Position numbers and translations under genes: made by a program. This document shows positions 8,311 to 52,861 of a DNA stretch of 64,000 nucleotides, one piece after another. The DNA comes from an uncultured Oligoflexia bacterium (GTDB lineage Bacteria; Bdellovibrionota; UBA1018; UBA6935). The notes beneath the pieces are model-generated. The model was not told the origin of the DNA. It saw only the letters and a program-made list of their open reading frames with translations, and ran no database searches. Positions within the stretch are counted from its first letter, which is position 1. Each line of letters starts with the position of its first letter. The DNA is taken from NCBI GenBank assembly GCA_964013565.1, contig CAXGWU010000001.1, forward strand, positions 93,601-157,600, read 5' to 3'.

Positions 8311-9795
8311 TTATCGTTTACTGTTAAAAGACAAAAATACACGATTGCATTTTAAATTTTCCCAGCTTTTTTGGTGATCTTGATAAGATTTCACAAGGTT
8401 ATCCAGTATTCTGTTTTTGAAAGGAGCCTTTTCAGAGAAAATTCTTGTTACTTTTTTGCTTGTCATTGAAATTTTTTGAATCAATGTAAAAAGGGTTACC
8501 GAAGGCTGAACGTCTCTTAGAACAGTATTGAGAATGTTTTCAAATTCTTTAGAGGAGATTTTCTTGTTTTTTCGTGCTACGGCTGTTTGTTCAAGAACGA
8601 GAAGAGGGATCCAGCGGTTTTTATAGTTTTTTGAAATTCTATGATAGAATTCAAAAAATTTAGAAATATCTTGTTTTTTACTTTCTTTGTTGAATGGTTT
8701 GTAAAAATTAGCAATTTCAGAATTGATAGATTCAATGTTTATTTTTTCTTTTTCCATTTTTAAAAGTAAATCTTCTTCATAATTCTTTTTTGAGATTCTT
8801 TTTTTTGTCCTATTCTTGATTTTGAATTGGTAGCCTAGCGCTTGAGCTTTTTTTATGACTTCCGCTAAAAAAGAATCGCTTGTAACAAGTTCGTAAATCG
8901 CTTTTTGATATCTAAGGAGATTCATTCTTACATCCGAAGACTTGGGGCCGAGTGACTTGGCGTAGCTATGATTGTTTTTATCTGTTGTAATTTCTGCAAA
9001 GCTTTGATTCCACGCGCCTACATAATGTTCATATCCAACTTCAGCAAACTTTGTTGAGACTTGATCATAGTAGTGAAGAGGAACGATGTTTTTATGATAT
9101 TCTGTTTGATCTGCTTGTTCTAAATTTTTTAATGTAGTTTCTTGAATTTTTCTTTTTTCCTTTAGTTCATATATGGATTCTCGAAAGGTTGGGGCAACTA
9201 CGCCTATAAAATAAAGTCGAGAAATGATGTCTTTGAGGTTTCCCCCGGAGTTTTCGTAGAGTCGGTACATTGCAGCAAGACAAGCTCGTCCTTGTCGTCC
9301 ATTTCCTTTAGAAACGGTGTCTACGAGTATGAGAGGTCTACCATTCATTCCATTTTTTAAGTCAAACCCTTTGCTTTTAAAAAGGCTATAGATTTGTTCG
9401 TCTGTAGGGTTGAATTTTGGACTAAAATCAGGATCCATTCCAAAAGTTGCTTTACTCATCCCCACTCTAATTACTTTATTGGGTTCTCCGATGCTATTGA
9501 AAAACCCTTCAATAATATCTGAAAATATTAGACTATCTCGACCTAAGAAGCCAAAAACTGCGTCTGGATAGATAAAAGATAAATGAGCGATAAATCTTGG
9601 TGCCTCTTTTTCTATAAATTGAAACCAATCAGGAAAAGGATTGTTTCCAGGAATTTCTTTTAAAACAGATTCCACCTTCTTCATAGATGGTCTTACGTTT
9701 TGATTGATTAAATTATTAATATCTTGGTCTTTTTGAGTCCAAGATAACATAGGAGAAAATAAGATAAGTAAGGCAATATATATTTTTGTTTTCAT
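8311..9795 (-). CDS. secreted hypothetical protein; member of an FxGRD / hhhDxSxxG paralog family
   Basis: Signal peptide MKTKIYIALLILFSPMLSW. The N-terminal region (…FGFLGRDSLIF… LILVDTVSKGNGRQGRACLAAMYRLYE…) is alignable with 13234-15192 and 16931-18463. Last gene of the seven-gene secreted operon. Confidence 0.55.
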   Translation of the reverse strand: MKTKIYIALLILFSPMLSWTQKDQDINNLINQNVRPSMKKVESVLKEIPGNNPFPDWFQFIEKEAPRFIAHLSFIYPDAVFGFLGRDSLIFSDIIEGFFNSIGEPNKVIRVGMSKATFGMDPDFSPKFNPTDEQIYSLFKSKGFDLKNGMNGRPLILVDTVSKGNGRQGRACLAAMYRLYENSGGNLKDIISRLYFIGVVAPTFRESIYELKEKRKIQETTLKNLEQADQTEYHKNIVPLHYYDQVSTKFAEVGYEHYVGAWNQSFAEITTDKNNHSYAKSLGPKSSDVRMNLLRYQKAIYELVTSDSFLAEVIKKAQALGYQFKIKNRTKKRISKKNYEEDLLLKMEKEKINIESINSEIANFYKPFNKESKKQDISKFFEFYHRISKNYKNRWIPLLVLEQTAVARKNKKISSKEFENILNTVLRDVQPSVTLFTLIQKISMTSKKVTRIFSEKAPFKNRILDNLVKSYQDHQKSWENLKCNRVFLSFNSKR

Positions 9796-9797
9796 TT

Positions 9798-11288
9798 CTA
9801 TTTTCCTCTCATGAGTGCAATTGCATCTTCTTCTGAATCAATAAGATGAATTCTTCTTTTTAACCATTCAGGGTAATGATCAGAGATTAAGTTTTTAAGT
9901 AACGGTTTATAGAATTCGCTATTTATAAAAGCTAATTGAGAGCGCTTATTTGGATTTCCAGAAAAATCAACAAAAGTTGTTGCTAGTTCTTTCATCGTTC
10001 CATTGCCTCCAGGTCCTACAAAAATAAGGTCTTTGTCGTGCAGTAAAAAAGGAATTCGTGTTTCATAATCCATTGATTCAATGACAAATCTTTTATTGCT
10101 AAAAGAATAAGATTTCCCAATGATAATATCGATGGCAGTTCCTCCATTATCAATGCTTGCATTTGCTGCGGCTTCCATGAGGCCACCCCCCCCACCGCTT
10201 GATAAGATATATTTATTTTTTGCAGAAACTTTAGCTACGAGTTGAACTAGTTGTCTCCAGCGATAGTCAAACGAACTAGACCCAAAAAAAACCGCTTTTT
10301 TATGATCTTTCAAACTTTCAGAAATATAATCTATATCTTCAATTCCAGCTAAGTAATTAGAGATGATTAATTTAAAACTATAATCAAATTGATGACTAAA
10401 CTTTTCTTCGTTGAAAGGAATAATGCTTTTATATCTATTGGGACCCGGAGTAATAAAACTTAAGTCATTTTTAATTTTTAAGTATGAAGACTTAAATTTT
10501 CCTAATGCTTTGAAATTTAAAAAGTCTGAATCCCATTCATTTTTATAGTTAATGAGGAAATCTAGTTTATCGATTAAATGAAGAGCTAAGGCTGTAACAG
10601 AACGAGTATCACCTACTGACTTTCCTATAGAAAAAGCTTTAAGTCTTAAGTAAGGATTTTCAATTGCAATGATGTTTTCATTTAAATTTTCTTTATTTGG
10701 GTCCGCAGTAATGCCTACTCCAAGTTTCCCTAATGTTTTTTGTATATCTTTCGCTGATATTGAATCTGCATCGTAGAAAAATATTTGAGAAAAATTAGAT
10801 AGTGTTTTTTTGAGTGAATTGAGATCGACTGTGGTTGGGTAATCGGTGGTTCCAAAAAGAAGAGTGTATGGATTCATATTGGAAAACGAATCTAACCACT
10901 TAAATCTCATAAGATCTGAAAGAAATGATTTTGATTGATCTTTTCTATCTAATTTAAAAATTTCCTCTATTGATAATTCTTGAGGTTTACTACTTTTTGA
11001 TGGAAGTTTTCTATTCTTGTTTTCGTAATGACTATTGGAATAACCTTTATAAGAATATGGGCTGTCTGTATCTAGACTTGTAACTGGAGATTGATAATCA
11101 AATTGGTATGTGTTGTTAACAGCAATCTCACTTATATCAGGAACTTCATCAATTTTAGGTGGTTTGATTCCGTGAATTCCAAAAACTAAAGCGCATTGAG
11201 AAGAAAATAAATGGTCCAAATTAGAAGTAGCGTTGGATGTTAATGTATAGATGATACCTACTATAGATATCAAAAAAAGATTTTTCAT
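9798..11288 (-). CDS. secreted protein with a C-terminal LOG-family (TIGR00730-like) domain
   Basis: Signal peptide. The C-terminus carries AVFFGSSS… ILSSGGGGGLMEAAANASIDNGGTAIDII… RIPFLLHDKDLIFVGPGGNGTMKEL, which matches the LOG GGGxGLMxA and PGGxGTxxE motifs. Overlaps the upstream gene by 4 nt. Confidence 0.65.
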   Translation of the reverse strand: MKNLFLISIVGIIYTLTSNATSNLDHLFSSQCALVFGIHGIKPPKIDEVPDISEIAVNNTYQFDYQSPVTSLDTDSPYSYKGYSNSHYENKNRKLPSKSSKPQELSIEEIFKLDRKDQSKSFLSDLMRFKWLDSFSNMNPYTLLFGTTDYPTTVDLNSLKKTLSNFSQIFFYDADSISAKDIQKTLGKLGVGITADPNKENLNENIIAIENPYLRLKAFSIGKSVGDTRSVTALALHLIDKLDFLINYKNEWDSDFLNFKALGKFKSSYLKIKNDLSFITPGPNRYKSIIPFNEEKFSHQFDYSFKLIISNYLAGIEDIDYISESLKDHKKAVFFGSSSFDYRWRQLVQLVAKVSAKNKYILSSGGGGGLMEAAANASIDNGGTAIDIIIGKSYSFSNKRFVIESMDYETRIPFLLHDKDLIFVGPGGNGTMKELATTFVDFSGNPNKRSQLAFINSEFYKPLLKNLISDHYPEWLKRRIHLIDSEEDAIALMRGK

Positions 11289-13237
11289 TTTATGTCCCCA
11301 ATAAAATTTTTCTCACATTTTTCCTCAATATCTCCATTAATTACTTCTTTTATAAATGTTTTTTTTATGTGAAGAGATTGAGCCCATTTATTTCCGAGTT
11401 CATCTAAATAGAGGAGTCTAGTTTCGGTATCTGTGGTTGTCGGAATGAGATGACCGTAGTACCAAAGGCTCCACGTTCCATTGTGAAAATATAAACTATC
11501 TGGAGTTAAACCGTGAATATATAGATTTAAATGAACTAGATGATCAAAAAAATCCGCAAGTGCTGTCCATGCAATTGTTTCATGAATTGGAACCGCTGCT
11601 TTATTTGAAAGCTCTCTTAAAGAAACTCCTTGTGGTTCATCTATCGCAACAAAATAAAGACTGTTTCTTATCTTAGAAACAATAATTCTATTCTCTTGTA
11701 GGTGCAATAGCTCATAGTATGAAGGTGTTCCTGGGTCAAACCTAAAGATCACTTGTTTTAAATTTTTTTCTTTTTGAATGATTTCATATTTTTTCAATTC
11801 TCCAATGTTCACTTTTTTTGGCGAAGAATTAATAAAAGGAGGCTCTTTTTTTATGTCATTATTTTCATAATTTAATTCATTACTTTTTTTTCGTCTTTTC
11901 TTTTTGGGACCTTTTGAATGATTTTGGAAGTTTTGTTTATCTAGTAATTCTTTCCAAAATAAATCAATTTCTTTTTTTTTGCTTTTAAGTTCTTCTCTTA
12001 ACCATTTTGTTTTTAGTTTGTTTGAGTATTCATTTAGAGTTCTATGTTTGCTGAAAAAAGTTCTAATTGGTCCGCTATCAACTATTTGCCATTCTTTTCC
12101 ATCAAAAATAAGATTGTCAGGGTTTAATCCGGAGACATAAATGTATTTTTCAGAAGCTTTAATGAAAAATTTTTCTAGTGCTAATTTTTTTGGGTTATTT
12201 TTTGTGTCTAAAATTTTTTCATCGAGAATCGCTTCTCTTAATCGAGTTCCTTCAATGAAATTCATAAGTAGAGACTTTTTATCTGTACTCCATTTCACAT
12301 TAACTGAAGACAGACCGTTTTTTCTCCATTCTTCTGATAGCTCTATCTGTTTTTTGAAACTTTTTTGAATATCCGCACTATCGTTTACTGGAACTTTCCA
12401 AGCCCATAGTTCTCCATTTGAGTCCTTTAACTGATGAACTCTACCTGTTTTTCCAACGCCTACGGCTTCTTTTTCTAATGAGTAACCTTCCGGAATATCG
12501 ACCTCTTTAACTGAGTTAATGAGAGCTAATAATTTTTCCCAGTTTTTTTCTTCAATCAAATCTTTGGCATTTTGTAAGAACTTTCTCCTTTGGCTAACTT
12601 CGGTAATGGTATTGGCTTTTTTTAGAACTTGAAAATGAATTGGTTCGAGATCAATTTTTGGGAAAACATACCGACTCAATCGCCTGAGAGTTTTTGTGTT
12701 TGCTCGGCTTGTGATAATCCAAATTAATTCAAAATCATCTCTATAAGAGGATAGAGGAAGGATATGTTTTGTAAAAGATTCTAATTCATCTAATGGTATG
12801 ATCGCTGCTGTATAACGAAGAGAAGGAAGTAAATTTTTTTCATTACTTTGAGTGAATAGTTTAAAGAGTGTAGAAAAGTTATAAATTTTTTTGTCGCTTA
12901 AAATGCCAATTAGAACATTGTTATTGTTTTTTCCTTTTTCTGAATGCAAATATTGATTAATAATGATGTCTCTTAGACAGAAACTTTCTGTCGCTAGTTT
13001 AATATAAAATTTATCAGGTGGGTTGTTTTGTGATTTAATGATTTCATCAATGATAGCTATATTCATCGCTTTATATTCATTGCTTTTCGCCAAAGATAGT
13101 TTTTTTATAACCTGAGAAATCGCCTCCCACTGTTGATTTTCGATTAGTTTTTTGAGTCGATGTGGAACCACGGTTTGAGCATGTGCTGGTATGATAAAAA
13201 ACAGACAAGCTAAATATAAGAAAATTTGTTTTTTCAT
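11285..13237 (-). CDS. secreted protein with tandem protein-kinase-like domains (atypical, possibly pseudokinase)
   Basis: Signal peptide. Domain 1: Gly-rich loop VGVGKTGRV, Lys in WAWKV, loop SGLNPDNLIF, and DSG. Domain 2: HGLTPDSLYF. Both lack a canonical HRD Asp. Confidence 0.5.
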   Translation of the reverse strand: MKKQIFLYLACLFFIIPAHAQTVVPHRLKKLIENQQWEAISQVIKKLSLAKSNEYKAMNIAIIDEIIKSQNNPPDKFYIKLATESFCLRDIIINQYLHSEKGKNNNNVLIGILSDKKIYNFSTLFKLFTQSNEKNLLPSLRYTAAIIPLDELESFTKHILPLSSYRDDFELIWIITSRANTKTLRRLSRYVFPKIDLEPIHFQVLKKANTITEVSQRRKFLQNAKDLIEEKNWEKLLALINSVKEVDIPEGYSLEKEAVGVGKTGRVHQLKDSNGELWAWKVPVNDSADIQKSFKKQIELSEEWRKNGLSSVNVKWSTDKKSLLMNFIEGTRLREAILDEKILDTKNNPKKLALEKFFIKASEKYIYVSGLNPDNLIFDGKEWQIVDSGPIRTFFSKHRTLNEYSNKLKTKWLREELKSKKKEIDLFWKELLDKQNFQNHSKGPKKKRRKKSNELNYENNDIKKEPPFINSSPKKVNIGELKKYEIIQKEKNLKQVIFRFDPGTPSYYELLHLQENRIIVSKIRNSLYFVAIDEPQGVSLRELSNKAAVPIHETIAWTALADFFDHLVHLNLYIHGLTPDSLYFHNGTWSLWYYGHLIPTTTDTETRLLYLDELGNKWAQSLHIKKTFIKEVINGDIEEKCEKNFIGDIK

Positions 13238-15192
13238 TTTTTAAGGTTTCCAGGTGTTCCAAATAGGATTTGACATGTCGAAGTACTGTTAGAACTAAAG
13301 CTCTTATTTTTACGACTGTCATGATAAAAGAACTCTTTTAAAAAATTCATATCTGAAAGCATTTCAGTTTGAGTTTTGTCTGTAAAAAAATAAGTATAAA
13401 ATCCTTTATTGAGACGTGGAGTGTAGTCTACATTAACAATTTGCTCAGCGTTATCGACCTGAAAATTTGCGGCTTTGAAGTCTAACCAAATGTTTTGTTC
13501 TGCTGCAATTTTTTTTGCGATAAGCCATTGTTCCAATACCTGGTTTTTTATTTTTTTCGGTATTTCTTCAATTGGATTTTGAGAATATTTTGCTTCTAAG
13601 TTTTTTCCGTCAAAGTAAGTTTGTTCTACAATTACCCCTGTTGGATGTGCATAAAGTATTTTTGCATGCCTAAAATTTGGATAATTTTTTAGAATTCTAT
13701 CTTGTGTCCATTTTTGCAAAAGAGATTTACGTGCATTTTTTGGGTTTTTTGTAATTTTAATAACTCTATTTTTATCACTTAAAAATACTTGTACATTTCT
13801 ACCTTCTCCTAGATATCCTTTTAACTTATAGAGGACTGCATTATTAGAGGTTAGAACCATTGGGTAATTTGGATCATCGCTTTTTTTGATTTCCAGAGAT
13901 GAAAAAAAGTCATTTGCTCCCTCTAATGGTTCCAGATATTGCCAATCTTTCATAGCACTGAAGCCTTTTTGATGGACTTCAGATATTTCCTGAAATAAGA
14001 GTTCGTTTTTGTTTAAGTCTTTTTTGTTTTTTCTTATTTTTTCTTGATTTTTAGTGGTCTTCTTTTTTACTGGAATAATTGTTTCAGCAAGTCGTAGATC
14101 AGATACTAGTCCAAGGAGTGATATAACTTTTTGAGATAGTTTTATAGGTTTGTCACTATAAATATGAAGTGACGGTTTTGTTTTAAATTTTAGTCCTGTT
14201 TGTATAAACTTATGACGATGCTCTAGTAGATTGTGAACATGATCAGCATCCCAGTGATTAATTGCTCCTGGAATAGCGATTTGAAATCGTTGAATAGAAA
14301 AAAAATAATCAGTTTCGGTGAGTTTTTTAATAGTCTCTGAAGAGAGTTCTTCGTTGTTCCTGGTGTAATTGTTGATAATATCTTTAAAAGAAGAGTTTCC
14401 ATCTACTCTTTTTGATCTCAAATATCTGAAATCTACAAGTTTCAGGAATTGAGTTGCTTCAGATTTATTTAGGTTTTCACAAATGGCTCTTAAAATTGCT
14501 CTGGGAATTTTTCCAGACATACTTGAATCCATAAATACTAAGCCATTTTTTAATAATCTCTCTTTTGTTAGTCCGATGGAATTTAATAAATGGTAAATTT
14601 CAGAAGTTTGATGGTTGAAGATTAAGTCTCTTATTTTCCTTGATACATTAAGGGTGTAAAGAAAATTTTTATCTATAGATTTTTTTAAAGAGATAAAAAG
14701 ATATGGAGCCGTAAAGTCTCTTCCTATAAAAAATAAATTTTTATTATTAAAATCTCTTTTGATTTCATTTTCTATTTGAGCGATTACAGGAATGATGACT
14801 TCTGTTTCGTATTCTTGAGTGTAACGAATAAGTTGATCTGTTATTTTTTTAGAATCAATTGAATCTAAAGAAACAACACCGATTTTTTTGTCTAATTCAA
14901 GAGCACTATTTTTAAGTTTTGAGCGTTTATTTGACCAATGAAAAAAGAGTTCATTGAAAAACTGAGTTTTTTCTTGAGTCGTTAGAGTTTTAACTTCTTC
15001 TAAAATTAAATAGATGTCATTACGAATTGACTCTAAAATATCGGTTTGAATCCATTTTTTAAGAAATTCATCGTAGCTATTAGAGTTTTGGGCTTGAAGA
15101 GCTGATTCATAGTGATTTTCTATTACATCGCTGGAAAATACATTAGTCTCAGTAAAGCAAAATAATAGAATAAATAAAATTAATTTATTCAT
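13234..15192 (-). CDS. secreted protein with an N-terminal FxGRD-family domain and a C-terminal protein-kinase-like domain
   Basis: Signal peptide. N-terminus has NLFFIGRDF… VFMDSSMSGKIPRAILRAICE, paralogous to 8311 and 16931. C-terminus has LGEGRNVQVF (Gly loop), VIKITK (Lys), DFKAANFQV (catalytic-loop-like D..K..N) and VNVDY. Confidence 0.55.
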   Translation of the reverse strand: MNKLILFILLFCFTETNVFSSDVIENHYESALQAQNSNSYDEFLKKWIQTDILESIRNDIYLILEEVKTLTTQEKTQFFNELFFHWSNKRSKLKNSALELDKKIGVVSLDSIDSKKITDQLIRYTQEYETEVIIPVIAQIENEIKRDFNNKNLFFIGRDFTAPYLFISLKKSIDKNFLYTLNVSRKIRDLIFNHQTSEIYHLLNSIGLTKERLLKNGLVFMDSSMSGKIPRAILRAICENLNKSEATQFLKLVDFRYLRSKRVDGNSSFKDIINNYTRNNEELSSETIKKLTETDYFFSIQRFQIAIPGAINHWDADHVHNLLEHRHKFIQTGLKFKTKPSLHIYSDKPIKLSQKVISLLGLVSDLRLAETIIPVKKKTTKNQEKIRKNKKDLNKNELLFQEISEVHQKGFSAMKDWQYLEPLEGANDFFSSLEIKKSDDPNYPMVLTSNNAVLYKLKGYLGEGRNVQVFLSDKNRVIKITKNPKNARKSLLQKWTQDRILKNYPNFRHAKILYAHPTGVIVEQTYFDGKNLEAKYSQNPIEEIPKKIKNQVLEQWLIAKKIAAEQNIWLDFKAANFQVDNAEQIVNVDYTPRLNKGFYTYFFTDKTQTEMLSDMNFLKEFFYHDSRKNKSFSSNSTSTCQILFGTPGNLKK

Positions 15193-16880
15193 CTTTTATT
15201 CCTCTTTTTATTAAAGAAATAAATTTCTTCATCTAAAAGGCCAAAGCTGAAGAGGGTCTCTATAGTGATTTTTAATTCAAAATCGTTTTTGACAAAATGA
15301 ATTCTATCTTTAATGAATTGCGGAATTGATGAGCTGTCGATTTGATTTTTTAAGCCACTGTAATAGTCATCACCCACAAAAATGATCTCTAATTTTTCTT
15401 TTGGGTTTTCTAGAAGTTTTAGAATCGTTATCCAAAATTCTTTCATGGTTCCAGAGCCTCCTGGAACAAAAACAACAAGTTGTTTTTCGTGAAGAAGGAG
15501 AGGGATTCGGGTTTCATATCCACTACTCGAAACGGTAAGAGAATGATGTTCTTTTTCTACTTTTTTTTCTGTTTTTAGAGTGTGTTTACCCGTGATAGGG
15601 ATCCCAACTGATGGAACATGAGATGATATTGCTGCAGTATTTGAAGTTTTCATGGCACCGCCAGCTCCGCCAGTCGTGATGCTAATATCAAGAGATCCTA
15701 AGGCGAGACCAGATTTGAAAATAAGGTTCTCAAAAGGATTCTCATCCCTTCCCGTTCCAAAAACTGCAGCTCCTCTTACTCCTGTTAAATCTTCTTGTCC
15801 GATTAGAAGTTCAGTAACTTCTTTGACGATATGATCAATTTGATAATCAGAAAGGTCTGAAAGAGTTATTTTTTTTGGTTTAAATTGTTTTGTAATTATT
15901 GGGAAAATTTCTGTCTCAACGTGAGGAGAGGTACGAATAGGCTCTCCTGCAAGGTCAAATTCTTGATTAAAGTAACTTTTACTGTAGATAGGAGATGAAG
16001 GGATTTTTTTAATCGCTGTAGTAACGGTTGTAGCTTGATCAAAAATAGGTATTTCTTTAGTTCGAACTCCCATGTTTATGTTCATAAGATCTAAGTCTTG
16101 TTTCCATTGATGAAGAGAAAAGTTCCATTCTTTTTTTGGATCAAAAATAATGTCTATTTCATTATTGAATAATCCCGCAAATCCAGTTGTGGAGTCAGGA
16201 GTTGTAATTATTTTTTCCGAGGTGTTAAATAAAGCCTGTGCTCTTAAGTAGGTGTTTTTAATGTAAACTTGGCCTCTTTGTTTTGTTGGTTGATTAGAGA
16301 TACCAAAAGATGATTTTTGAGCTAGAGATTGAATTAGTTTAGCGTAAGGACTATTTGATTCGTAGAGGATAAAATATCCACGAGAAATAAATTGAGAAAC
16401 TAATTCGGTCAATTCAGTTTGCATTTGAGGATCAGGCTGTGTTCCAGAAGTCCCTGCAAGAATCGTCACTGTTTGTTTTGAATTTAGTTTTTTTAATCTT
16501 TCTAGGTTGAGGTGATCTTGAATGTACTGACCTTCAGTAGTTAATAATACCAATTCAAGTGCTTTTAGGTTTTTTTCTCTGTTTGTTTTTTTTAGACGTT
16601 GAATCTCTGAAGTTATTTGAGCTATTTGCTTTTTTACCGATTGATTTTCTTTTTTTCCAGAATTACTAAAAATTTTTTTTAGTAATCCTCTTTGTTTTTT
16701 AGAAATTTTTTTAGTATTTAAAGACGTTAATTTTTTTTCTAATTCTTTAATCCGTTCTGACTCCTGATTTAGACTAGTTAGTCGTTCTAATGTGGATAGA
16801 CGACTTAAAAAATTTTCTTCACATCCGGCTAAAGAGAAGTGATGGGCAATTAAAGTTAAAATAATAATAAGTTTTTTCAC
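15189..16880 (-). CDS. lipoprotein with a C-terminal LOG-family domain
   Basis: Lipobox LAGC after the signal peptide. C-terminus has AAVFGTGR… ISITTGGAGGAMKTSNTAA… RIPLLLHEKQLVVFVPGGSGTMKEF (LOG motifs). Paralogous over this domain to 9798-11288. Confidence 0.65.
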   Translation of the reverse strand: MKKLIIILTLIAHHFSLAGCEENFLSRLSTLERLTSLNQESERIKELEKKLTSLNTKKISKKQRGLLKKIFSNSGKKENQSVKKQIAQITSEIQRLKKTNREKNLKALELVLLTTEGQYIQDHLNLERLKKLNSKQTVTILAGTSGTQPDPQMQTELTELVSQFISRGYFILYESNSPYAKLIQSLAQKSSFGISNQPTKQRGQVYIKNTYLRAQALFNTSEKIITTPDSTTGFAGLFNNEIDIIFDPKKEWNFSLHQWKQDLDLMNINMGVRTKEIPIFDQATTVTTAIKKIPSSPIYSKSYFNQEFDLAGEPIRTSPHVETEIFPIITKQFKPKKITLSDLSDYQIDHIVKEVTELLIGQEDLTGVRGAAVFGTGRDENPFENLIFKSGLALGSLDISITTGGAGGAMKTSNTAAISSHVPSVGIPITGKHTLKTEKKVEKEHHSLTVSSSGYETRIPLLLHEKQLVVFVPGGSGTMKEFWITILKLLENPKEKLEIIFVGDDYYSGLKNQIDSSSIPQFIKDRIHFVKNDFELKITIETLFSFGLLDEEIYFFNKKRNKR

Positions 16881-16930
16881 CGTTTATTTAGTCCTTTTTT
16901 AAAAGTAAGATTTGCTTTTTTTAAAATGAT

Positions 16931-18463
16931 TTATTTTTTATCTATTTGTGTAAAAATTCGATTACATCCAGTTTTTGTAAGATAATCTGAGATGGTTTTA
17001 GTGTGTTCCGAAATTTTCCCTCCAAATTTGTCGGAGTTTTTAAATTCATCTTCTCTTTTTTCAAACATAGATCTGAATTTTTCATCGTTTTCATAAAGCT
17101 CCCGAATAGCTTTTAGTTGATCGTCAGAAAGAGAAGGAGTGTTGCCTAGGACATAACGATAAAGTCGTTTATAATCTCTTCCTTTAATTTTCTGAGAAGC
17201 TCTTGCTCTAGTGATAGCCTGCATAAATGGGACAATGATTTTGTCTTTAAAATCTGTATTTTGAAATTGCTTTAACCATTGAAGGTAGTGATTTCCGTTG
17301 TTTGAGAGTTTGTTTGTGATTTCTCCGGGTTCATTTAAAGATTGTTCTATTTCAAAAAGGTTTTTTAGATGTTCTTTAAGTTGTTCTTGTTTTTTCTCTT
17401 CTTGAAGAGCTAATTCTTTTTTTCTTTGTTTTTTTCTTTCATTGATTTGTTGTGACGTTAGTGATTGATAAAGTTTTGAATTTCCATCTAAATCAATTTT
17501 ATAGAGTTTTAGATATTCATCTAATTTGTCTTTAAATTCATTAGATTTAATGAGTTCGATAATTATATAAATTTCTTGTAAAACAGTTTTTTTTGAAATA
17601 TTCGAAAATTGCACGCCAGAAATTGGAATAAGTTTTTCGTTTATTTCTTTAAAACCTAGCCATGAATCATGCCACTCTGAAGTCCTATGATTTATCCTAA
17701 AAAAAGTTCCATAACTTGTGCTTAATCGTGGAACCGGTACGCCGTCTATATGAGATAGTGATGATACGTTTTCGAAAAAGTTTTCCTGATCAAAGTCTTC
17801 GTTGATAGTATGTTTTAGGTTGTTGTCGCTAATATTAACAAACGCAATTTTTCCAAGAAGATCTTTTGGGTCTTTTCCTAGATTTTTGTAGGTTTCATAG
17901 AGATATCTCATCGTTAGCCTGGATTGGCTTGCTTCTCCTCCTCCTCCTCCACTGGTATAAGTTGGGCTATAGCTACTAAAATCATAGAGAACCCAAGGGG
18001 CACTTTCTGTAATGGTATCGAAGTTAATGCCTAGAGACTGAGCATATCGAACAATGGTTTCTGAGGAAGAGTTTTTAAAACTTGGAGTACTTGCGTTGAA
18101 TCTTCCTGCGCGATTAGGCTCACCTCTCAGATAGTAAAACGCTTCCAGGGCTAGACTATTTTGGATGACATCTCTTCCAAGAGAAAAATATCTTCCTCCA
18201 GGAAAGGCTTTTTCAAAACTTACAATCATTCTGGCGATATTGTTTATAGCATTAGGGTAAGCATTAGCGATAAACTCTTGATTAAGCATTTTTTCATGAC
18301 TCGGCCATGGGTTGAGTACAGTGAGCATTTCTTCGATTGTGGGAACTGTTTTTTTTTGTACTAACTCATCAATTTGATTTTCTAATTGTGTTTGATCAGA
18401 AAAAGCAAAAGAAATGAAAAGAAAGTGGAGGCTAAAAAAAATAGATTTATTTATGAGTTTCAT
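16931..18463 (-). CDS. secreted hypothetical protein; FxGRD / hhhDxSxxG paralog family member
   Basis: Start chosen at the internal Met (MKLINKSIFFSLHFLFISFAFS signal peptide) so that it abuts rather than overlaps the Prs-like gene. Carries RYFSLGRDVIQ… WVLYDFSSYSPTYTSGGGGGEASQSRLTMRYLYE. Confidence 0.5.
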   Translation of the reverse strand: MKLINKSIFFSLHFLFISFAFSDQTQLENQIDELVQKKTVPTIEEMLTVLNPWPSHEKMLNQEFIANAYPNAINNIARMIVSFEKAFPGGRYFSLGRDVIQNSLALEAFYYLRGEPNRAGRFNASTPSFKNSSSETIVRYAQSLGINFDTITESAPWVLYDFSSYSPTYTSGGGGGEASQSRLTMRYLYETYKNLGKDPKDLLGKIAFVNISDNNLKHTINEDFDQENFFENVSSLSHIDGVPVPRLSTSYGTFFRINHRTSEWHDSWLGFKEINEKLIPISGVQFSNISKKTVLQEIYIIIELIKSNEFKDKLDEYLKLYKIDLDGNSKLYQSLTSQQINERKKQRKKELALQEEKKQEQLKEHLKNLFEIEQSLNEPGEITNKLSNNGNHYLQWLKQFQNTDFKDKIIVPFMQAITRARASQKIKGRDYKRLYRYVLGNTPSLSDDQLKAIRELYENDEKFRSMFEKREDEFKNSDKFGGKISEHTKTISDYLTKTGCNRIFTQIDKK

Positions 18464-18464
18464 T

Positions 18465-19850
18465 TTATTTAATCTTTCTGCGTATAAATAACGTTTTACA
18501 AAGTGGAGTCTTTTTTTCTCCTGAAAATACAGACTGTAAAGTTTCCGAAATTTCAAAACCTAAATTTAAAACTGATATATCTGGCTGAGTAATGTTAAAT
18601 GAATTCGTCACAACCATGAGATCAATGTCTGGCGAGTCAATTGCTTTTTGAGCGTTTCCTGCAAGATGGCTAACAACACCAAATATCTTATTTGCACCAT
18701 GCTTTTTAAGAAACTCTGCTGACTCGGCAAGTGTTCCTCCAGAGGCAGTTTCGTCATCAACAATCGCTACAGTATGCCCTTTTACAGAGTCTCCACTAAT
18801 CCCGAGAATACGAGTCTCTCCAGTGAGAGGATTTCTTTTCTTATTGATAATTGCGAGGGGTAGGTGAAGTTCTTCTGCATATAAAGTAGCATCTTTTTGA
18901 AAACCAGCGTCAGGAGAAACGATAATAGAAACTCCCAGTTTCTTGAGTTCTTTATTGATTGTTTCTCTTCCGTTGATTTCAAAAACAGGGATAGAAAAAA
19001 AACCTACACTCTGAGGTGCATGCGGTCTTACAATTGTTATTGTTTTTACTCCTAGTCCCTCAATGAGGTCAGCAGTGAGTCTTCCTGTTACAGTAATTCC
19101 AAATTGATCTATCTTATCTGATCGAGCATAAGGAAGGTAGGGAGAGATCAGGTGAACTTGTTGCCACTTTGATTGAGTGCTATATATTTTATGTAAAGTA
19201 TCAAAAAATGATTTGTTTATTGGAGACTCAAGAGAAGATACATAAAATATATTGTATCCAGAGAGCTTTTTATTGTTGGGGTTCCATTCAGATTCTTGAA
19301 TGACTGGGATATTGAGTTGTTTTGATAAGGTGTCTCTCAATGAAGGGTTTGTGTCTCCTACAATTGCAAACTTTTTTTTAAAATTTTTTGTTTTTGTTTG
19401 ATATTCTGGAAAGTCATAATCTTGGTTTGCAATACGGTAAGATTCCGCCCCCGAAATTTTGAAAAGTTTTAATACAAAAGTTGAAGGTAAGGATTCAGAT
19501 TCAAAATGAACGGATATTGATAAGGCACCCATTGTTTTAGCGGTGCGAACTTTAATGAGAGCTTCCATAAGAAGGTCATCATGATCTTCAATGTTGTTTG
19601 GAATATACAGAGTTAGTTTCTGATTGATAGGATTTTTTAAAAATCGAACAAAAGTATTTCCGTTGCTAAACTCCGTTGTTTTTGTCGGAAGAATTTTACT
19701 TTCAATAGTTTCAGAATACGATTGAGTCTTTGCCTCATATCCACGAATTCCAACAAGCCATGGCTTTTTAGAAGCGATACAAACATTTGAAAAGCTAAAG
19801 CTTAAAAGAAATAAAAGTCCAAATTGTATTTTTTTTTGTGCCCCACCCAT
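18465..19850 (-). CDS. secreted ribose-phosphate pyrophosphokinase (Prs/PRPP synthetase) homolog with an N-terminal extension
   Basis: Signal peptide MGGAQKKIQFGLLFLLSFSFSNVCIA. Matches Prs landmarks: FAIVGDTNPSLRDTL…, ISPYLPYARSDK (cf. PYFGYARQDRK), RPHAPQSVGFFSIPVFEING (cf. DLHAxQIQGFFDIPVDN), IVSPDAG, AIINKKR, and PRPP loop VAIVDDETASGGT. The first ~130 aa look like a degenerate extra Prs N-half. Confidence 0.7.
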   Translation of the reverse strand: MGGAQKKIQFGLLFLLSFSFSNVCIASKKPWLVGIRGYEAKTQSYSETIESKILPTKTTEFSNGNTFVRFLKNPINQKLTLYIPNNIEDHDDLLMEALIKVRTAKTMGALSISVHFESESLPSTFVLKLFKISGAESYRIANQDYDFPEYQTKTKNFKKKFAIVGDTNPSLRDTLSKQLNIPVIQESEWNPNNKKLSGYNIFYVSSLESPINKSFFDTLHKIYSTQSKWQQVHLISPYLPYARSDKIDQFGITVTGRLTADLIEGLGVKTITIVRPHAPQSVGFFSIPVFEINGRETINKELKKLGVSIIVSPDAGFQKDATLYAEELHLPLAIINKKRNPLTGETRILGISGDSVKGHTVAIVDDETASGGTLAESAEFLKKHGANKIFGVVSHLAGNAQKAIDSPDIDLMVVTNSFNITQPDISVLNLGFEISETLQSVFSGEKKTPLCKTLFIRRKIK

Positions 19851-47659: not shown

Positions 47660-48553
47660 TTATTCAAGCGCCCAATCAAAAATTCCATGGATTCTTAATC
47701 TTCTGACTTCTTCTTTGAGTCGATCTACTTCAATTTGAAGGTCTTCGATTCTGTTGATGAACGTTGAAGCCGTAAAAAACAGGGTTTCAACGTCAATGCT
47801 TATTTGAAGAAGTGCTTTTGAGTGATTTTGCAATAACACTCGATAGTAAATTCGGGCATTTTTGAGTTCATCAATACGGTAGTTATCAATACTTAAGGCG
47901 AGATCAAAAAGTTCTTTTTCAGTAGATTCAATAATGTCGAGTTGAGTGCTTTCTAAGAGTTCAAATGGGTTGAGATAGTTTCTTCTTAAATGTTCAATGA
48001 TGAATGCGTCAATTCCCCCAATGATTCCACCTGTAAGATAGACTTGAGTTCTACCAATGAGGGTTTTTGGAAGCTCATGAGAGACAACCTTCAGTCGTCG
48101 AGAGAATTGCTCTAGGTTTGTCTTTCCTGCAGAAACCCAAGCAGATTTTTTAAATAAACCACGAGTCCATTTAAATCCATAAAACAAAGTCCAGTATACA
48201 GCAATATCTTTAAAGATAATCATGACGGGATGACGTTTCTCTTGTTCATCCAGTTCTCTTTGAATCATTGATTGTATTTGAGAGAGAAGTAAAACGGTAT
48301 TTGCTCGGTCAATCGGATTCCAGCGATAATGACTTATTAAATTAAGAAGCGTTTCATTAAAATCTTCTTTTGAAAGAGATTTAATTCTTCTGGAGAGAGC
48401 ACGGGCATGTCTGAGTTGTAGATCTTCACTCGAGGGAGAGTCGTTTTCATTTGATGAATAAGTATTAAAATAATCTTGAATCATTTGATCTGACCAAGGA
48501 GCTGCATAAGAAAATCCATGAAATAAAAAAATTCCTAATAAAAATTGAATCAT
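47660..48553 (-). CDS. hypothetical secreted protein
   Basis: Signal peptide MIQFLLGIFLFHGFSYA (start at the internal Met). No known motif. First of three co-directional AT-rich genes. Confidence 0.45.
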   Translation of the reverse strand: MIQFLLGIFLFHGFSYAAPWSDQMIQDYFNTYSSNENDSPSSEDLQLRHARALSRRIKSLSKEDFNETLLNLISHYRWNPIDRANTVLLLSQIQSMIQRELDEQEKRHPVMIIFKDIAVYWTLFYGFKWTRGLFKKSAWVSAGKTNLEQFSRRLKVVSHELPKTLIGRTQVYLTGGIIGGIDAFIIEHLRRNYLNPFELLESTQLDIIESTEKELFDLALSIDNYRIDELKNARIYYRVLLQNHSKALLQISIDVETLFFTASTFINRIEDLQIEVDRLKEEVRRLRIHGIFDWALE

Positions 48554-52649: not shown

Positions 52650-52861
52650 GGAGTTTTTATAACGCAATAAGTCATTGTTTTCAATGAAGAAGGTTCGTAG
52701 GGCCTTTGATTCAAATTTCAGGTTCGACCCATGCATTTATTTGAAATTACTATTAAAATTGTAACGATTTAGTCTGGAACTTCGAATAAGTTCTATTACA
52801 GGCGAAAAATAGTACTTCTAAAAAGGAAAGTTTGTTTCGATTGACTCGATTATCAATCTTT

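What the first reader, a model, noticed from the sequence alone, without database searches (positions are those of the whole stretch)
13234..15192. Fusion of the novel FxGRD domain to a near-canonical protein-kinase-like domain
The C-terminal third has the motifs in canonical order: LGEGRNVQVF (Gly loop), VIKITK (Lys), DFKAANFQV (catalytic loop with D, K, N) and VNVDY. The N-terminus belongs to the paralog family shared with 8311 and 16931. Domain fusion links the unknown domain functionally to phosphotransfer.
Basis: partly seen in the sequence, partly recalled or inferred. Interest (0 to 1): 0.65.

Follow-up and report, generated by a model that had tools for sequence, protein, structure and literature searches.

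The report
Exported phosphoribosyltransferase-kinase fusion protein
The gene encodes a probably secreted two-enzyme protein, a sugar-phosphate (phosphoribosyl) transferase joined to a small kinase. It sits in a conserved operon that also exports the enzyme making the transferase's donor molecule, PRPP, so this chemistry, normally confined to the cytoplasm, may be carried out outside the producer cell.

The parts
13234..15192 (-). Whole ORF, 652 aa: signal peptide, gPRT-like domain, Lys-rich linker, minimal kinase-like domain, and a Cys-containing tail
   Evidence: Full-length homologues P0001-3 at 31-32% identity. About 20 of 58 representative relatives keep both domains.
15133..15192 (-). Predicted Sec-type signal peptide (MNKLILFILLFCFTETNVFS)
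   Evidence: Basic N-terminus followed by a 12-residue hydrophobic stretch (mean Kyte-Doolittle 2.57). Homologues have VWA|Q and SHA|E type sites. This is a heuristic; no dedicated predictor was available.
14077..15117 (-). N-terminal domain (residues 26-372): helical bundle plus a PRT-type alpha/beta core, the 'FxGRD' domain
14716..14724 (-). G157-R158-D159, the loop after beta1. Proposed pyrophosphate/ribose loop, equivalent to CriT S678-R679-D680.
   Evidence: Invariant in 27 family members. CriT residue roles are from PMC10299916. Also invariant in the paralog family (G85-R86-D87).
14638..14649 (-). N182-V-S184-R185 (followed by R188), the loop after beta2. Proposed phosphate-binding S-R, equivalent to CriT S707-R708(+R712).
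   Evidence: S184 and R185 are invariant. The spacing from the R-D loop is 27 aa, against 29 aa in CriT and 29 aa in paralog B.
14509..14529 (-). D222-S-S-M-S-G227-K, the loop after beta3 (LVFMD). A PRPP-loop-like hhhhD-x-x-x-S-G motif, equivalent to CriT E818 plus loop 821-825.
   Evidence: D222 and G227 are invariant. Secondary structure is strand 218-222 followed by helix 228-239. CriT roles.
14209..14223 (-). E324-H-R-H-K328 (family consensus FEHRPK), a conserved motif of unknown role. Candidate general base or PPi contact.
   Evidence: K328 is invariant and E324 is conserved in at least 90% of 27 sequences. The proposed role is inference only.
13906..14076 (-). Lys-rich, low-confidence interdomain linker (residues 373-429)
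   Evidence: pLDDT below 50 for 375-428 in the full-length model. Length varies and gaps are frequent in alignment A1.
13303..13905 (-). Minimal protein-kinase-like domain (residues 430-630)
13783..13812 (-). Gly-rich loop LGEGRNVQVF (G462, G464)
   Evidence: It aligns with LGRGGMGDVY of a Pkinase protein.
13756..13758 (-). K479, the beta3 (VAIK-type) lysine
   Evidence: Invariant in A1 and conserved in at least 90% of A6, which includes true kinases.
13456..13482 (-). Catalytic loop D571-F-K573-A-A-N576-F-Q-V (D-x-K-x-x-N)
   Evidence: D571 is invariant across A6.
13423..13437 (-). V-N-V-D589-Y, the DFG-equivalent metal-binding Asp
   Evidence: D589 is invariant across A6 and aligns with the DFG motif of Pkinase proteins.
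13261..13275 (-). C640-Q-I-L-F, the terminal Cys tag shared by every protein of the cluster
   Evidence: C640 is invariant in A1. The same C-x-x-h-[FY] motif lies near one terminus of all seven window proteins and of the L001 and L007 cluster proteins.
18465..19850 (-). Operon partner: exported PRPP-synthetase-like protein (461 aa)
   Evidence: TIGR01251, 180 bits against a cut-off of 113. Pribosyltran_N and Pribosyl_synth in Pfam. Signal-like N-terminus.
16931..18463 (-). Operon partner: stand-alone gPRT-like paralog A. The likely true start is M32 at 18463.
   Evidence: BLASTP 2e-16 to paralog B. The signal-like segment follows M32. Paralog HMM E 1e-130.
15189..16880 (-). Operon partner: LOG/SLOG-domain protein 1 (563 aa), with a lipobox-like LAGC
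   Evidence: Lysine_decarbox, 33.1 bits (cut-off 27), and LDcluster4. PGGSGTMKE motif visible in the translation. N-terminus.
11285..13237 (-). Operon partner: exported protein with two degenerate kinase-like modules (650 aa)
   Evidence: PADLOC PD-T4-6, 9.3e-6, over residues 256-347. Weak hhalign to the C-domain profile, with Gly at the catalytic-Asp position.
9798..11288 (-). Operon partner: LOG/SLOG-domain protein 2 (496 aa)
   Evidence: LDcluster4, 32.5 bits (cut-off 26.3), and TIGR00725/TIGR00730 hits. PGGNGTMKE motif.
8311..9795 (-). Operon partner: stand-alone gPRT-like paralog B (494 aa)
   Evidence: It is 100% identical to P0004, 'hypothetical protein [Bdellovibrionaceae bacterium]'.

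Best explanation
The gene encodes an exported bifunctional enzyme. After a signal peptide comes a divergent PRPP-dependent phosphoribosyltransferase domain of the glycan-PRT (gPRT / Bcs3-CriT) type. The inference is that it binds PRPP through its G-R-D, S-R and D..S-G loops and transfers ribose-5-phosphate to a hydroxyl (or phosphate) of a bulky acceptor. A flexible Lys-rich linker joins it to a ~200-aa minimal protein-kinase-like domain with an intact ATP-binding and phosphotransfer set (G-loop, Lys, D-x-K-x-x-N, DFG-type Asp), which probably phosphorylates the same acceptor or the product. It is translationally coupled within a seven-gene, low-GC operon whose products all carry signal peptides. 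One is a PRPP-synthetase-like enzyme, two are LOG-type phosphoribohydrolases, two are stand-alone gPRT-like paralogs, and one is a degenerate double kinase-like protein. Inferred pathway: LOG converts NMP to ribose-5-P plus base. Prs converts ribose-5-P plus ATP to PRPP plus AMP, and that AMP feeds LOG again, so ATP alone can prime the cycle. The gPRT-like domains then convert PRPP plus acceptor to acceptor-ribose-5-P. Because ATP and PRPP are absent from a normal periplasm, the system most likely works inside or against another cell, such as the prey of a Bdellovibrio-like predator. Phage-encoded, signal-peptide-less relatives would do the same chemistry in the host cytoplasm using host PRPP. 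Shown here: domain folds, conserved residues, fusion conservation and operon conservation. Inferred: donor, order of reactions, export beyond the inner membrane, and site of action. Unknown: the acceptor.
For: Kinase domain.
- The profile of the family hits Pfam Pkinase proteins P0060 and P0061 (E 2e-4 against 1.84 billion proteins; their Pkinase scores are 1e-32 and 1e-37). Family member P0043 passes the ABC1 cut-off.
- The MAFFT alignment with these kinases has the second G-loop Gly, the catalytic Asp and the DFG-type Asp invariant. The first G-loop Gly and the beta3 Lys are conserved in at least 90% of rows.

N-domain.
- The model has pLDDT 93.8.
- Family invariants are G157-R158-D159, S184-R185, D222..G227 and K328. 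The first three sit on the loops after beta1, beta2 and beta3, in the same order and spacing as CriT S678-R679-D680, S707-R708 and E818 plus loop 3, which bind PRPP (PMC10299916).

Paralogy.
- Four hhalign runs give E 1.2e-5 to 1.8e-4 in an identical register.
- The paralogs keep GRD, S-[KRT] and D..G.

Context.
- The order Prs-like, LOG, paralog, fusion is conserved in the window and in L001/L005, L007, L008, L010 and L011.
- Prs-like scores 180 bits on TIGR01251, above the cut-off. The LOG proteins keep PGGxGTxxE.
- All seven window proteins, and their homologues, have signal-like N-termini.
- The genes share 4-bp overlaps.
- Fusion relatives without a signal peptide lie on phage contigs that lack Prs and LOG. 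Two of the three sit near a NUDIX gene (adjacent in L009, one gene away in L012).
- The literature states that prototypical gPRT enzymes must act in the cytoplasm to reach PRPP (PMC11127046). That makes a co-exported PRPP synthetase a logical requirement.
Against: - No sequence-level link to any gPRT, PRT or solved structure. The gPRT assignment rests on a predicted model, and the residue mapping rests on loop order and spacing, not on an inspected superposition.
- The C-domain model is only of moderate confidence (pLDDT 50-77).
- The alphaC Glu column holds Gln or Ser in the target and its three closest homologues, so activity is not assured.
- Signal peptides were judged by eye and by hydrophobicity only.
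- ATP- and PRPP-dependent enzymes outside the cytoplasm are hard to explain. Nothing here shows delivery into prey, or that the MAG is a predator.
- The HAD phosphatase that partners known gPRTs is absent.
- The roles of LOG (nucleotide hydrolysis) and Prs (true PRPP synthesis, as opposed to another pyrophosphoryl transfer) are inferred from family membership alone.
Confidence: 0.6

Rival explanations
1. An envelope-glycan builder of the producer itself. The gPRT-like domains add ribofuranose-5-phosphate to the bacterium's own surface polysaccharide or teichoic-like polymer, as in capsule and O-antigen ribofuranosyltransferases. The kinase acts as a WaaP-like sugar kinase that decorates the glycan.
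Against: The window operon has no Leloir glycosyltransferase, ABC/Wzx transporter, polyprenyl-phosphate enzyme or HAD phosphoribose phosphatase. No glycan-assembly Pfam family was seen in the related loci either. Known gPRTs are cytoplasmic because PRPP is cytoplasmic, whereas every protein here has a signal peptide. Phage-borne relatives sit in replication and nucleotide modules, not glycan modules.
Confidence: 0.15
2. An exported nucleotide salvage or remodelling set, or an ATP-depleting toxin set. The PRT-like domains make N-glycosidic bonds (base plus PRPP gives NMP) and the kinase phosphorylates nucleotides. Alternatively, the LOG-Prs cycle simply drains the victim's adenylate pool, with PRPP consumption as a sink.
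Confidence: 0.15
3. A nucleic-acid or signalling-nucleotide modifier. The fusion phosphoribosylates and phosphorylates DNA, RNA or an ADP-ribose/NAD-derived molecule. That would make it a phage or predator counter-defence or hypermodification function, with the Prs-like enzyme pyrophosphorylating something other than ribose-5-P.
For: Phage relatives sit next to a helicase or RadA-like gene, or to a Dam methylase. NUDIX and RNA ligase genes also occur in their loci. Their C-terminal tails are polybasic. SLOG/LOG domains are often associated with nucleotide-centred conflict systems. From memory and not tested here, phage NARP1 pairs a Prs-like enzyme with a PRT-type enzyme.
Against: No nucleic-acid-binding domain was detected. 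The Prs-like protein scores as a genuine ribose-phosphate diphosphokinase above the NCBIfam cut-off. There were no PADLOC or anti-defence hits for the target. The Bdellovibrio-type proteins are exported, not cytoplasmic.
Confidence: 0.08
4. The N-terminal resemblance, both to the paralogs and to PRTases, is convergent or an artefact of a generic Rossmann-like alpha/beta core. On this view the N-domain is a non-catalytic targeting or regulatory module for the kinase.
For: There are no pairwise BLAST or HMM hits between the two families. hhalign probabilities are only 48-81%. No sequence hit to any PRT.
Confidence: 0.05

Closest known systems
PRPP-dependent glycan phosphoribosyltransferases (gPRT domain of polysaccharide ribofuranosyltransferases, PDB 7SHG; CriT module of H. 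influenzae Bcs3, PDB 8A0C)
   Different: No detectable sequence homology. The known enzymes are cytoplasmic and are paired with a HAD phosphoribose phosphatase inside glycan-assembly loci. This protein has a signal peptide, is fused to a kinase rather than a phosphatase, and sits with an exported PRPP synthetase and LOG enzymes, with no glycan-assembly genes nearby.
Type-I nucleobase phosphoribosyltransferases (HPRT, UPRT, OPRT, XGPRT)
   Different: The vicinal DD pair is replaced by D222-S, with a second acidic residue on loop 1 (D159), as in CriT. The domain has a large N-terminal helical bundle and extra conserved motifs (NVSR, EHRPK). Similarity to these enzymes is much weaker than to gPRTs.
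Minimal or atypical protein-kinase-like enzymes (Bud32, RIO1/2, WaaP/Kdo kinases, aminoglycoside and macrolide phosphotransferases)
   Different: No Pfam family reaches threshold on the target itself. The alphaC Glu is Gln. The domain carries its own conserved tail (PR-x-N..YF...FF) and a terminal Cys. It is no closer to any one of these families than to eukaryotic-type kinases such as DYRK and CLK.
Stand-alone 'FxGRD' paralog family of the same operons (window 8311-9795 and 16931-18463; P0005-7; up to nine copies in L011)
   Same: G-R-D, S-[KRT] 27-29 aa later, and hhhD-x-S-x-x-G. hhalign E 1e-5 to 2e-4 over 95-190 columns. Same operons, same signal peptides and same C-terminal Cys tag.
   Different: No kinase domain. 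They have a different C-terminal half (Y..H..AWH motif and a long helical tail). The two HMMs do not cross-hit at E below 1e-3, so they are separate families.
Phage NARP1 pathway (Prs-like Adps plus PRT-type Namat). Recalled from memory and not tested here.
   Same: The pairing of a PRPP-synthetase-like pyrophosphokinase with a phosphoribosyltransferase-type enzyme in an invader of bacterial cells.
   Different: NARP1 uses a NAMPT-like (type-II) PRT, has no kinase-like or LOG component and is cytoplasmic. No sequence or fold link was found here.

Membership tests
Protein-kinase-like (PKL) superfamily | Glycine-rich loop (GxGxxG-type) in the N-lobe | tested here: met
   LGEGRNVQVF. G462 and G464 are invariant in A1. 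In the alignment with true kinases the second Gly is invariant and the first is conserved in at least 90% of rows.
Protein-kinase-like (PKL) superfamily | Beta3 lysine (VAIK) | tested here: met
   K479 (VIKITK) is invariant in A1 and conserved in at least 90% of A6.
Protein-kinase-like (PKL) superfamily | AlphaC glutamate pairing with the beta3 lysine | tested here: inconclusive
   The column that holds Glu in Pkinase P0061 and in most stand-alone relatives (WAE/WSE) holds Gln497 in the target and Q or S in its three closest homologues.
Protein-kinase-like (PKL) superfamily | Catalytic loop D-x-K-x-x-N and the DFG-type metal-binding Asp | tested here: met
   D571, K573, N576 and D589. D571 and D589 are invariant across 19 sequences including Pkinase proteins. 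The register is confirmed against PKA.
Protein-kinase-like (PKL) superfamily | Bilobal kinase fold | tested here: met
Protein-kinase-like (PKL) superfamily | Statistically significant sequence-profile link to a curated kinase family | tested here: met
   The family profile hits P0060 and P0061 at about E 2e-4 in 1.84 billion proteins, and these are Pfam Pkinase at 1e-32 and 1e-37. Family member P0043 passes the ABC1 gathering score. The target alone hits no Pfam kinase model.
Eukaryotic-type Ser/Thr/Tyr protein kinases (Pfam Pkinase) | Activation segment ending in APE, plus the alphaF-alphaI C-lobe | tested here: not met
   The domain ends about 40-50 aa after D589. No APE-like motif appears in the alignment, and only one helix (614-627) follows. 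It is not a member of Pkinase proper.
gPRT / CriT PRPP-dependent glycan phosphoribosyltransferases | PRT-type parallel alpha/beta catalytic core flanked by helical bundles | tested here: met
gPRT / CriT PRPP-dependent glycan phosphoribosyltransferases | Loop 1 x-R-D (CriT S678-R679-D680): Arg to the pyrophosphate, Asp to the ribose | tested here: met
   G157-R158-D159 directly follow strand 152-156 and are invariant in 27 sequences. The equivalence is inferred from loop position, not from an inspected superposition.
gPRT / CriT PRPP-dependent glycan phosphoribosyltransferases | Loop 2 S-R (CriT S707-R708, R712) binding phosphates | tested here: met
   S184-R185 (+R188) follow strand 178-181 and are invariant. 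The spacing to loop 1 is 27 aa, against 29 aa in CriT.
gPRT / CriT PRPP-dependent glycan phosphoribosyltransferases | Loop 3 acidic residue (CriT E818) plus a main-chain 5-phosphate loop | tested here: met
   D222 ends strand 218-222 and is followed by SSMSG227K and helix 228-239. D222 and G227 are invariant.
gPRT / CriT PRPP-dependent glycan phosphoribosyltransferases | Partner HAD-family phosphoribose phosphatase (PRP/CrpP) in the same protein or locus | tested here: not met
   No HAD hit in any of the seven operon proteins or in the related loci. A kinase-like domain occupies the fused position.
gPRT / CriT PRPP-dependent glycan phosphoribosyltransferases | Detectable sequence homology to characterised members | tested here: not met
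   Profiles A1, A5 and A7 find no gPRT or PRT in PDB sequences at E up to 10. No Pfam or NCBIfam hit.
gPRT / CriT PRPP-dependent glycan phosphoribosyltransferases | Uses PRPP as donor to form an O-linked ribofuranose-5-phosphate | not testable with these tools
   This needs an enzyme assay. Supported only indirectly by the conserved, co-operonic PRPP-synthetase-like gene.
gPRT / CriT PRPP-dependent glycan phosphoribosyltransferases | Cytoplasmic location, inside a glycan-assembly locus | tested here: not met
   The protein has a signal-like N-terminus. No glycan-assembly genes were seen in the operon. The literature says prototypical enzymes must be cytoplasmic.
'FxGRD' paralog family (8311 / 16931 type) | Sequence homology of the N-domain to the paralogs | tested here: inconclusive
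   BLASTP is negative and the HMMs do not cross-hit. hhalign gives E 1.2e-5 to 1.8e-4 and probability 48-81% with a constant register that covers GRD, S-[RK] and D..S..G. Probably homologous but a separate family.

The most novel reading that the evidence does not exclude
The operon is a self-contained, exported phosphoribosylation machine. LOG and a secreted PRPP synthetase turn a victim cell's nucleotides and ATP into PRPP. A battery of gPRT-like enzymes, one of them fused to a kinase, then covalently phosphoribosylates (and phosphorylates) a macromolecule of the prey or host. The enzymes may be held together as a complex through their single terminal cysteines. Phages would carry the cytoplasmic version of the same weapon. 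This would be a previously undescribed effector chemistry, PRPP-dependent modification of another cell's components, shared by predatory bacteria and phages.
Probability: 0.3. Interest if true: 0.85.

Novelty: new variant of a known kind. Interest (0 to 1): 0.68.

Why it matters
PRPP-dependent glycan phosphoribosyltransferases were recognised only in 2022-2023 and are considered obligately cytoplasmic, because PRPP exists only there.

This case shows a sequence-unrecognisable branch of that fold with three unusual properties:
- It is fused to a kinase rather than a phosphatase.
- It carries a signal peptide.
- It travels with an exported PRPP synthetase and nucleotide-cleaving LOG enzymes, in an operon conserved across Bdellovibrio-type genomes and expanded to as many as nine paralogs per locus.

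If the inferred pathway is right, bacteria can take PRPP chemistry outside their own cytoplasm. That would define a new family of predator and phage effectors with a testable donor (PRPP) and testable catalytic residues.

It also assigns a probable fold and chemistry to two orphan protein families, 58 and more than 25 members seen here, that have no Pfam or NCBIfam model.

Tried and rejected
**Searches that found nothing**
- Pfam, NCBIfam and PADLOC on the target: no usable hit. PHROGs gave only a weak match of the kinase domain to the unknown-function family phrog_4301 (E 0.0014).
- Profile searches of PDB sequences with A1, A5 and A7: nothing relevant.
- BLASTP of the target against both paralogs and against the neighbouring kinase-like protein: no significant match.

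**Searches of limited value**
- The third homologous-protein run, with a 27-sequence alignment, added only P0018. That is a 272-aa Tara fragment identical to the target's C-terminus, so the full-length target is not in that collection.
- The genome-contig scan found only the same uncultured Bdellovibrio MAG as P0001. With alignment A4 it could not run at all.
- The viral-contig scan with P0024 found nothing. tblastn of the target and of P0024 against 50,697 GenBank phages found nothing.
- The afdb50 fold library was unavailable.
- The listing of cluster members gave no organism names.

**Ideas dropped or unresolved**
- The polybasic C-x-x-X ends of the signal-peptide-less relatives are not eukaryotic CaaX prenylation signals. 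Those proteins sit on bacteriophage contigs with tail fibre, endolysin and Dam genes.
- Adding more paralogs to the profile did not raise the hhalign probability (48% and 69% against 80%). The paralogy therefore remains probable, not proven.
- A link between the target's kinase domain and the neighbouring 11285 protein is weak (E 0.0027, probability 11%).

Full report
**1. What is at the coordinates**

The window holds an ATG-initiated ORF of 652 aa at 13234-15192 on the minus strand. It has a GAGGA ribosome-binding site about 8 nt upstream. It shares 4-bp ATGA overlaps with the gene before it (15189-16880) and the gene after it (11285-13237).

It lies in a seven-gene minus-strand block, 8311-19850. 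GC there is 0.30-0.35 per gene, against about 0.38-0.41 in the flanks. The flanks are housekeeping genes: cytochrome-c assembly, UvrD, thyA and folA.

The 8311 protein is 100% identical to a 'hypothetical protein' of a marine Bdellovibrionaceae MAG. The full-length target itself is absent from the 5.8-billion-protein collection. Only a 272-aa Tara fragment of its C-terminus is present.

**2. The kinase-like C-terminus**

Six lines of evidence support a kinase fold.

- The target has three full-length homologues at 31-32% identity. G462, G464, K479, D571, N576 and D589 are invariant among the four.
- A profile of these four, run against 1.84 billion representative proteins, finds 58 relatives. 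The weakest significant hits (E about 2e-4) are proteins that Pfam scores as Pkinase at 1e-32 and 1e-37. A closer family member passes the ABC1 atypical-kinase threshold.
- A MAFFT alignment of the C-domain, stand-alone relatives and the true kinases places LGEGRN under the G-loop, K479 under the VAIK lysine, WLDFKAANF under HRDIKPEN and VDY under DFG. The second G-loop Gly, the catalytic Asp and the DFG-type Asp are invariant.
- A full-length AlphaFold model (four-sequence alignment, pLDDT 62, C-domain 50-77) gives only kinases and aminoglycoside phosphotransferases among the Foldseek top hits, from 3e-4.

The domain is minimal, at about 200 aa (residues 430-630). It ends 40-50 residues after the DFG-type Asp and has no APE or activation segment. 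The alphaC-Glu column holds Gln in the target. It is therefore a PK-like domain that is probably active, but not a canonical eukaryotic-type kinase. The mix of structural neighbours does not indicate whether the substrate is a protein, a sugar or a small molecule.

**3. The 'FxGRD' N-terminus**

Pfam, NCBIfam, PADLOC and PDB-sequence profile searches find nothing usable for this region, and the weak PHROGs matches do not characterise it.

Across 27 relatives the invariant residues are G157-R158-D159, S184-R185, D222, G227 and K328. N182, P230 and E324 are conserved in at least 90%.

A model of residues 26-375, built from a 23-sequence alignment, is confident (pLDDT 93.8, pTM 0.92). It shows a helical bundle followed by a parallel alpha/beta core.

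The Bcs3 paper describes the PRPP site of its CriT module (PMC10299916):
- loop 1, S678-R679-D680: the Arg contacts the pyrophosphate, and the Asp contacts the ribose and replaces half of the classical DD motif;
- loop 2, S707-R708 (+R712);
- loop 3, E818 plus a main-chain phosphate loop.

The target's invariants occupy the equivalent loops.

| CriT | Target | Position in target |
|---|---|---|
| S678-R679-D680 | G157-R158-D159 | after strand 152-156 |
| S707-R708 (+R712) | S184-R185 (+R188) | after strand 178-181, 27 aa after loop 1 (29 aa in CriT) |
| E818 + loop 821-825 | D222 + SSMSG227K | after strand 218-222 |

The domain is thus best read as a divergent gPRT/CriT-like PRPP-dependent phosphoribosyltransferase with an intact active site. 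I could not inspect the superposition. The residue equivalence is inferred from loop order, residue type and spacing.

**4. Relation to the 8311 and 16931 proteins**

These two proteins are clear paralogs of each other (BLASTP 2e-16, full length). The target shows no BLASTP similarity to either. HMMs of the two families do not cross-hit at E below 1e-3.

Four profile-profile comparisons all align the same block, covering GRD, S-[RK] and hhhD-x-S-x-x-G.

| Comparison | E-value | Probability |
|---|---|---|
| A1 vs A3 | 1.2e-5 | 81% |
| A5 vs A3 | 1.5e-5 | 80% |
| A5 vs A7 | 1.8e-4 | 48% |
| A5 vs 27-sequence paralog profile (190 columns) | 4.4e-5 | 69% |

The paralogs keep G85-R86-D87, S114 (29 aa later) and D159..G164. 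I regard homology as probable (about 0.8).

**5. Is the fusion conserved?**

Yes. About 20 of the 58 representatives cover both domains. N-only forms (for example P0025, 385 aa, complete with the terminal Cys) and C-only forms also exist.

**6. Genomic context**

The window operon, in transcription order, is:

1. a PRPP-synthetase-like protein (TIGR01251, 180 bits against a cut-off of 113);
2. paralog A;
3. LOG-1;
4. the target;
5. a protein with two degenerate kinase-like modules (PADLOC PD-T4-6 9.3e-6; Gly in place of the catalytic Asp);
6. LOG-2;
7. paralog B.

Both LOG proteins keep the PGGxGTxxE motif.

The order Prs-like, LOG(s), stand-alone paralog, fusion recurs in five other loci: L001/L005 (an uncultured Bdellovibrio MAG), L007, L008, L010 and L011. 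The paralog family is expanded to as many as nine copies in one locus. L001 adds a RelA_SpoT-family protein.

Every protein of these operons begins with one to three basic residues and a 12-20-residue hydrophobic stretch, often followed by an AXA-like site. These are Sec-type signal peptides by eye, and LOG-1 has a lipobox-like LAGC.

Fusion relatives without a signal peptide (P0024, P0064, P0027) sit on high-GC phage contigs. Their neighbours hit tail-fibre, endolysin, DNA-methyltransferase, DnaB/RadA-like helicase and RNA-ligase PHROGs. A NUDIX gene lies adjacent in one locus and one gene away in another. None has Prs or LOG genes.

**7. Most likely mechanism**

*Shown here.* A signal-peptide-bearing protein combines a gPRT-like domain with an intact PRPP-site signature and a minimal kinase-like domain with an intact phosphotransfer signature. 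It is translationally coupled to an exported PRPP-synthetase-like enzyme and LOG enzymes in a conserved operon.

*Inferred from family knowledge.* LOG enzymes cleave nucleoside 5'-monophosphates to ribose-5-phosphate plus base. Prs makes PRPP plus AMP from ribose-5-phosphate plus ATP. The AMP can re-enter through LOG, so ATP alone can sustain PRPP production. The gPRT-like domains then transfer ribose-5-phosphate to an acceptor, and the kinase phosphorylates the acceptor or the product.

[quoted passage not shown] Exported versions that carry their own PRPP supply, and cytoplasmic phage versions that do not, fit that constraint. However, this contrast rests on six bacterial and three phage loci.

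*Site of action.* Neither ATP nor nucleotides are available in an ordinary periplasm, so the likeliest place of action is another cell. The prey of a Bdellovibrio-like predator is one candidate, but nothing here demonstrates delivery, and the acceptor is unknown.

Rival readings are listed with their evidence in the Rival explanations section: self-glycan synthesis, exported nucleotide salvage or ATP depletion, nucleic-acid or signalling-nucleotide modification, and a non-catalytic N-domain.

**8. Comparison with known systems and novelty**

The N-domain works like a gPRT/CriT. It fails three membership features: sequence homology, the partner HAD phosphatase, and a cytoplasmic glycan-assembly context. 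I do not file it as a member.

The C-domain is a member of the PK-like superfamily but not of Pfam Pkinase.

Three things appear new:
- the kinase fusion;
- the export signal;
- the association with exported Prs and LOG enzymes.

I found no description of this in the literature searches and no annotated homologue in GenBank phages. I rate it a new variant of known kinds, with an interest score of 0.68.

**9. Unexplained**

Every protein of these operons carries a C-x-x-[hydrophobic]-[F/Y/L] motif a few residues from one terminus, and in many it is the only cysteine. The motif is C-terminal in the Prs-like, gPRT-like and kinase-like proteins. In the LOG and RelA_SpoT proteins it comes just after the signal peptide.

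It could mediate disulfide tethering of the enzymes into a complex, or it could be a sorting or lipidation signal. I could not test either idea.

Noticed in passing
window 13261-13275 (target CQILF); also the C-termini of 8311-9795, 11285-13237, 16931-18463 and 18465-19850, the N-termini of 9798-11288 and 15189-16880, and loci L001, L007, L010 and L011: All seven operon proteins, and their homologues in other loci, carry a C-x-x-[hydrophobic]-[F/Y/L] motif 4-12 residues from one end. It is often the protein's only Cys. It is C-terminal in the Prs-like, gPRT-like and kinase-like proteins. In the LOG and RelA_SpoT proteins it comes just after the signal peptide. Possible roles are a disulfide-tethering, sorting or lipidation tag. 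It is unexplained.
   Followed up: partly
window 8311-19850: The seven-gene block has markedly lower GC (0.30-0.35 per gene) than its housekeeping flanks (about 0.38-0.41). That suggests a horizontally acquired island, sitting between uvrD and thyA-folA.
   Followed up: partly
window 16931-18556 (-): The listed TTG start gives a 92-bp overlap with the upstream Prs-like gene and a 31-aa leader before the signal-like segment. The likely true start is the ATG at 18463 (M32), which abuts the Prs-like stop at 18465.
   Followed up: partly
window 11285-13237 (-): The downstream neighbour has two kinase-like modules. The first has a G-loop and Lys (PADLOC PD-T4-6, 9.3e-6), but its catalytic-loop Asp is replaced (SGLNPDN). 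The second (HGLTPDSLYF) looks more degenerate still. It may be a pseudokinase, or a PK-like enzyme with a different chemistry.
   Followed up: partly
window 15189-16880 (-): LOG-1 starts with VKKLIIILTLIAHHFSLAG|C, a lipobox-like LAGC, so it may be a lipoprotein. LOG-2 and the LOG homologues in other loci lack a lipobox.
   Followed up: no
L011:1551-21139; L007:3754-17226: The stand-alone gPRT-like paralog family is tandemly expanded, with nine copies in L011 (six of them consecutive ~500-aa genes downstream of the fusion) and six in L007. This suggests diversification of acceptor specificity.
   Followed up: partly
L001:12006-13013 (-): In the homologous locus of an uncultured Bdellovibrio MAG, a RelA_SpoT-family protein (335 aa) sits next to the fusion gene. 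It has a signal peptide and the N-terminal Cys tag. The window has no counterpart.
   Followed up: no
L009:10001-11899, L012:10001-11881, L013:1950-3731: Fusion relatives without a signal peptide are encoded on high-GC phage contigs carrying tail fibre, endolysin, Dam, helicase and RNA ligase genes. In L009 and L012 a RadA/DnaB-like ATPase lies upstream and a NUDIX gene downstream. They end in a polybasic C-x-x-X tail. None is found in 50,697 GenBank phages.
   Followed up: partly
window 13234-15192, residue Q497: The position that aligns with the kinase alphaC glutamate is Gln (Q or S in the three closest homologues), although most stand-alone relatives have Glu there. The Lys-Glu salt bridge may be missing in this subfamily.
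   Followed up: partly
window 50016-52736 (-), 48550-50067 (-), 54960-58487 (+): Three further large ORFs (906, 505 and 1175 aa) have no Pfam hit at E up to 0.001. The 906-aa ORF lies in a second low-GC stretch (0.31).
   Followed up: no
window 13303-13905 (target residues 452-640): The kinase-like domain weakly matches phrog_4301 (E 0.0014, covering nearly the whole 225-position profile). That is a phage protein family of unknown function and may be a stand-alone minimal kinase.
   Followed up: no
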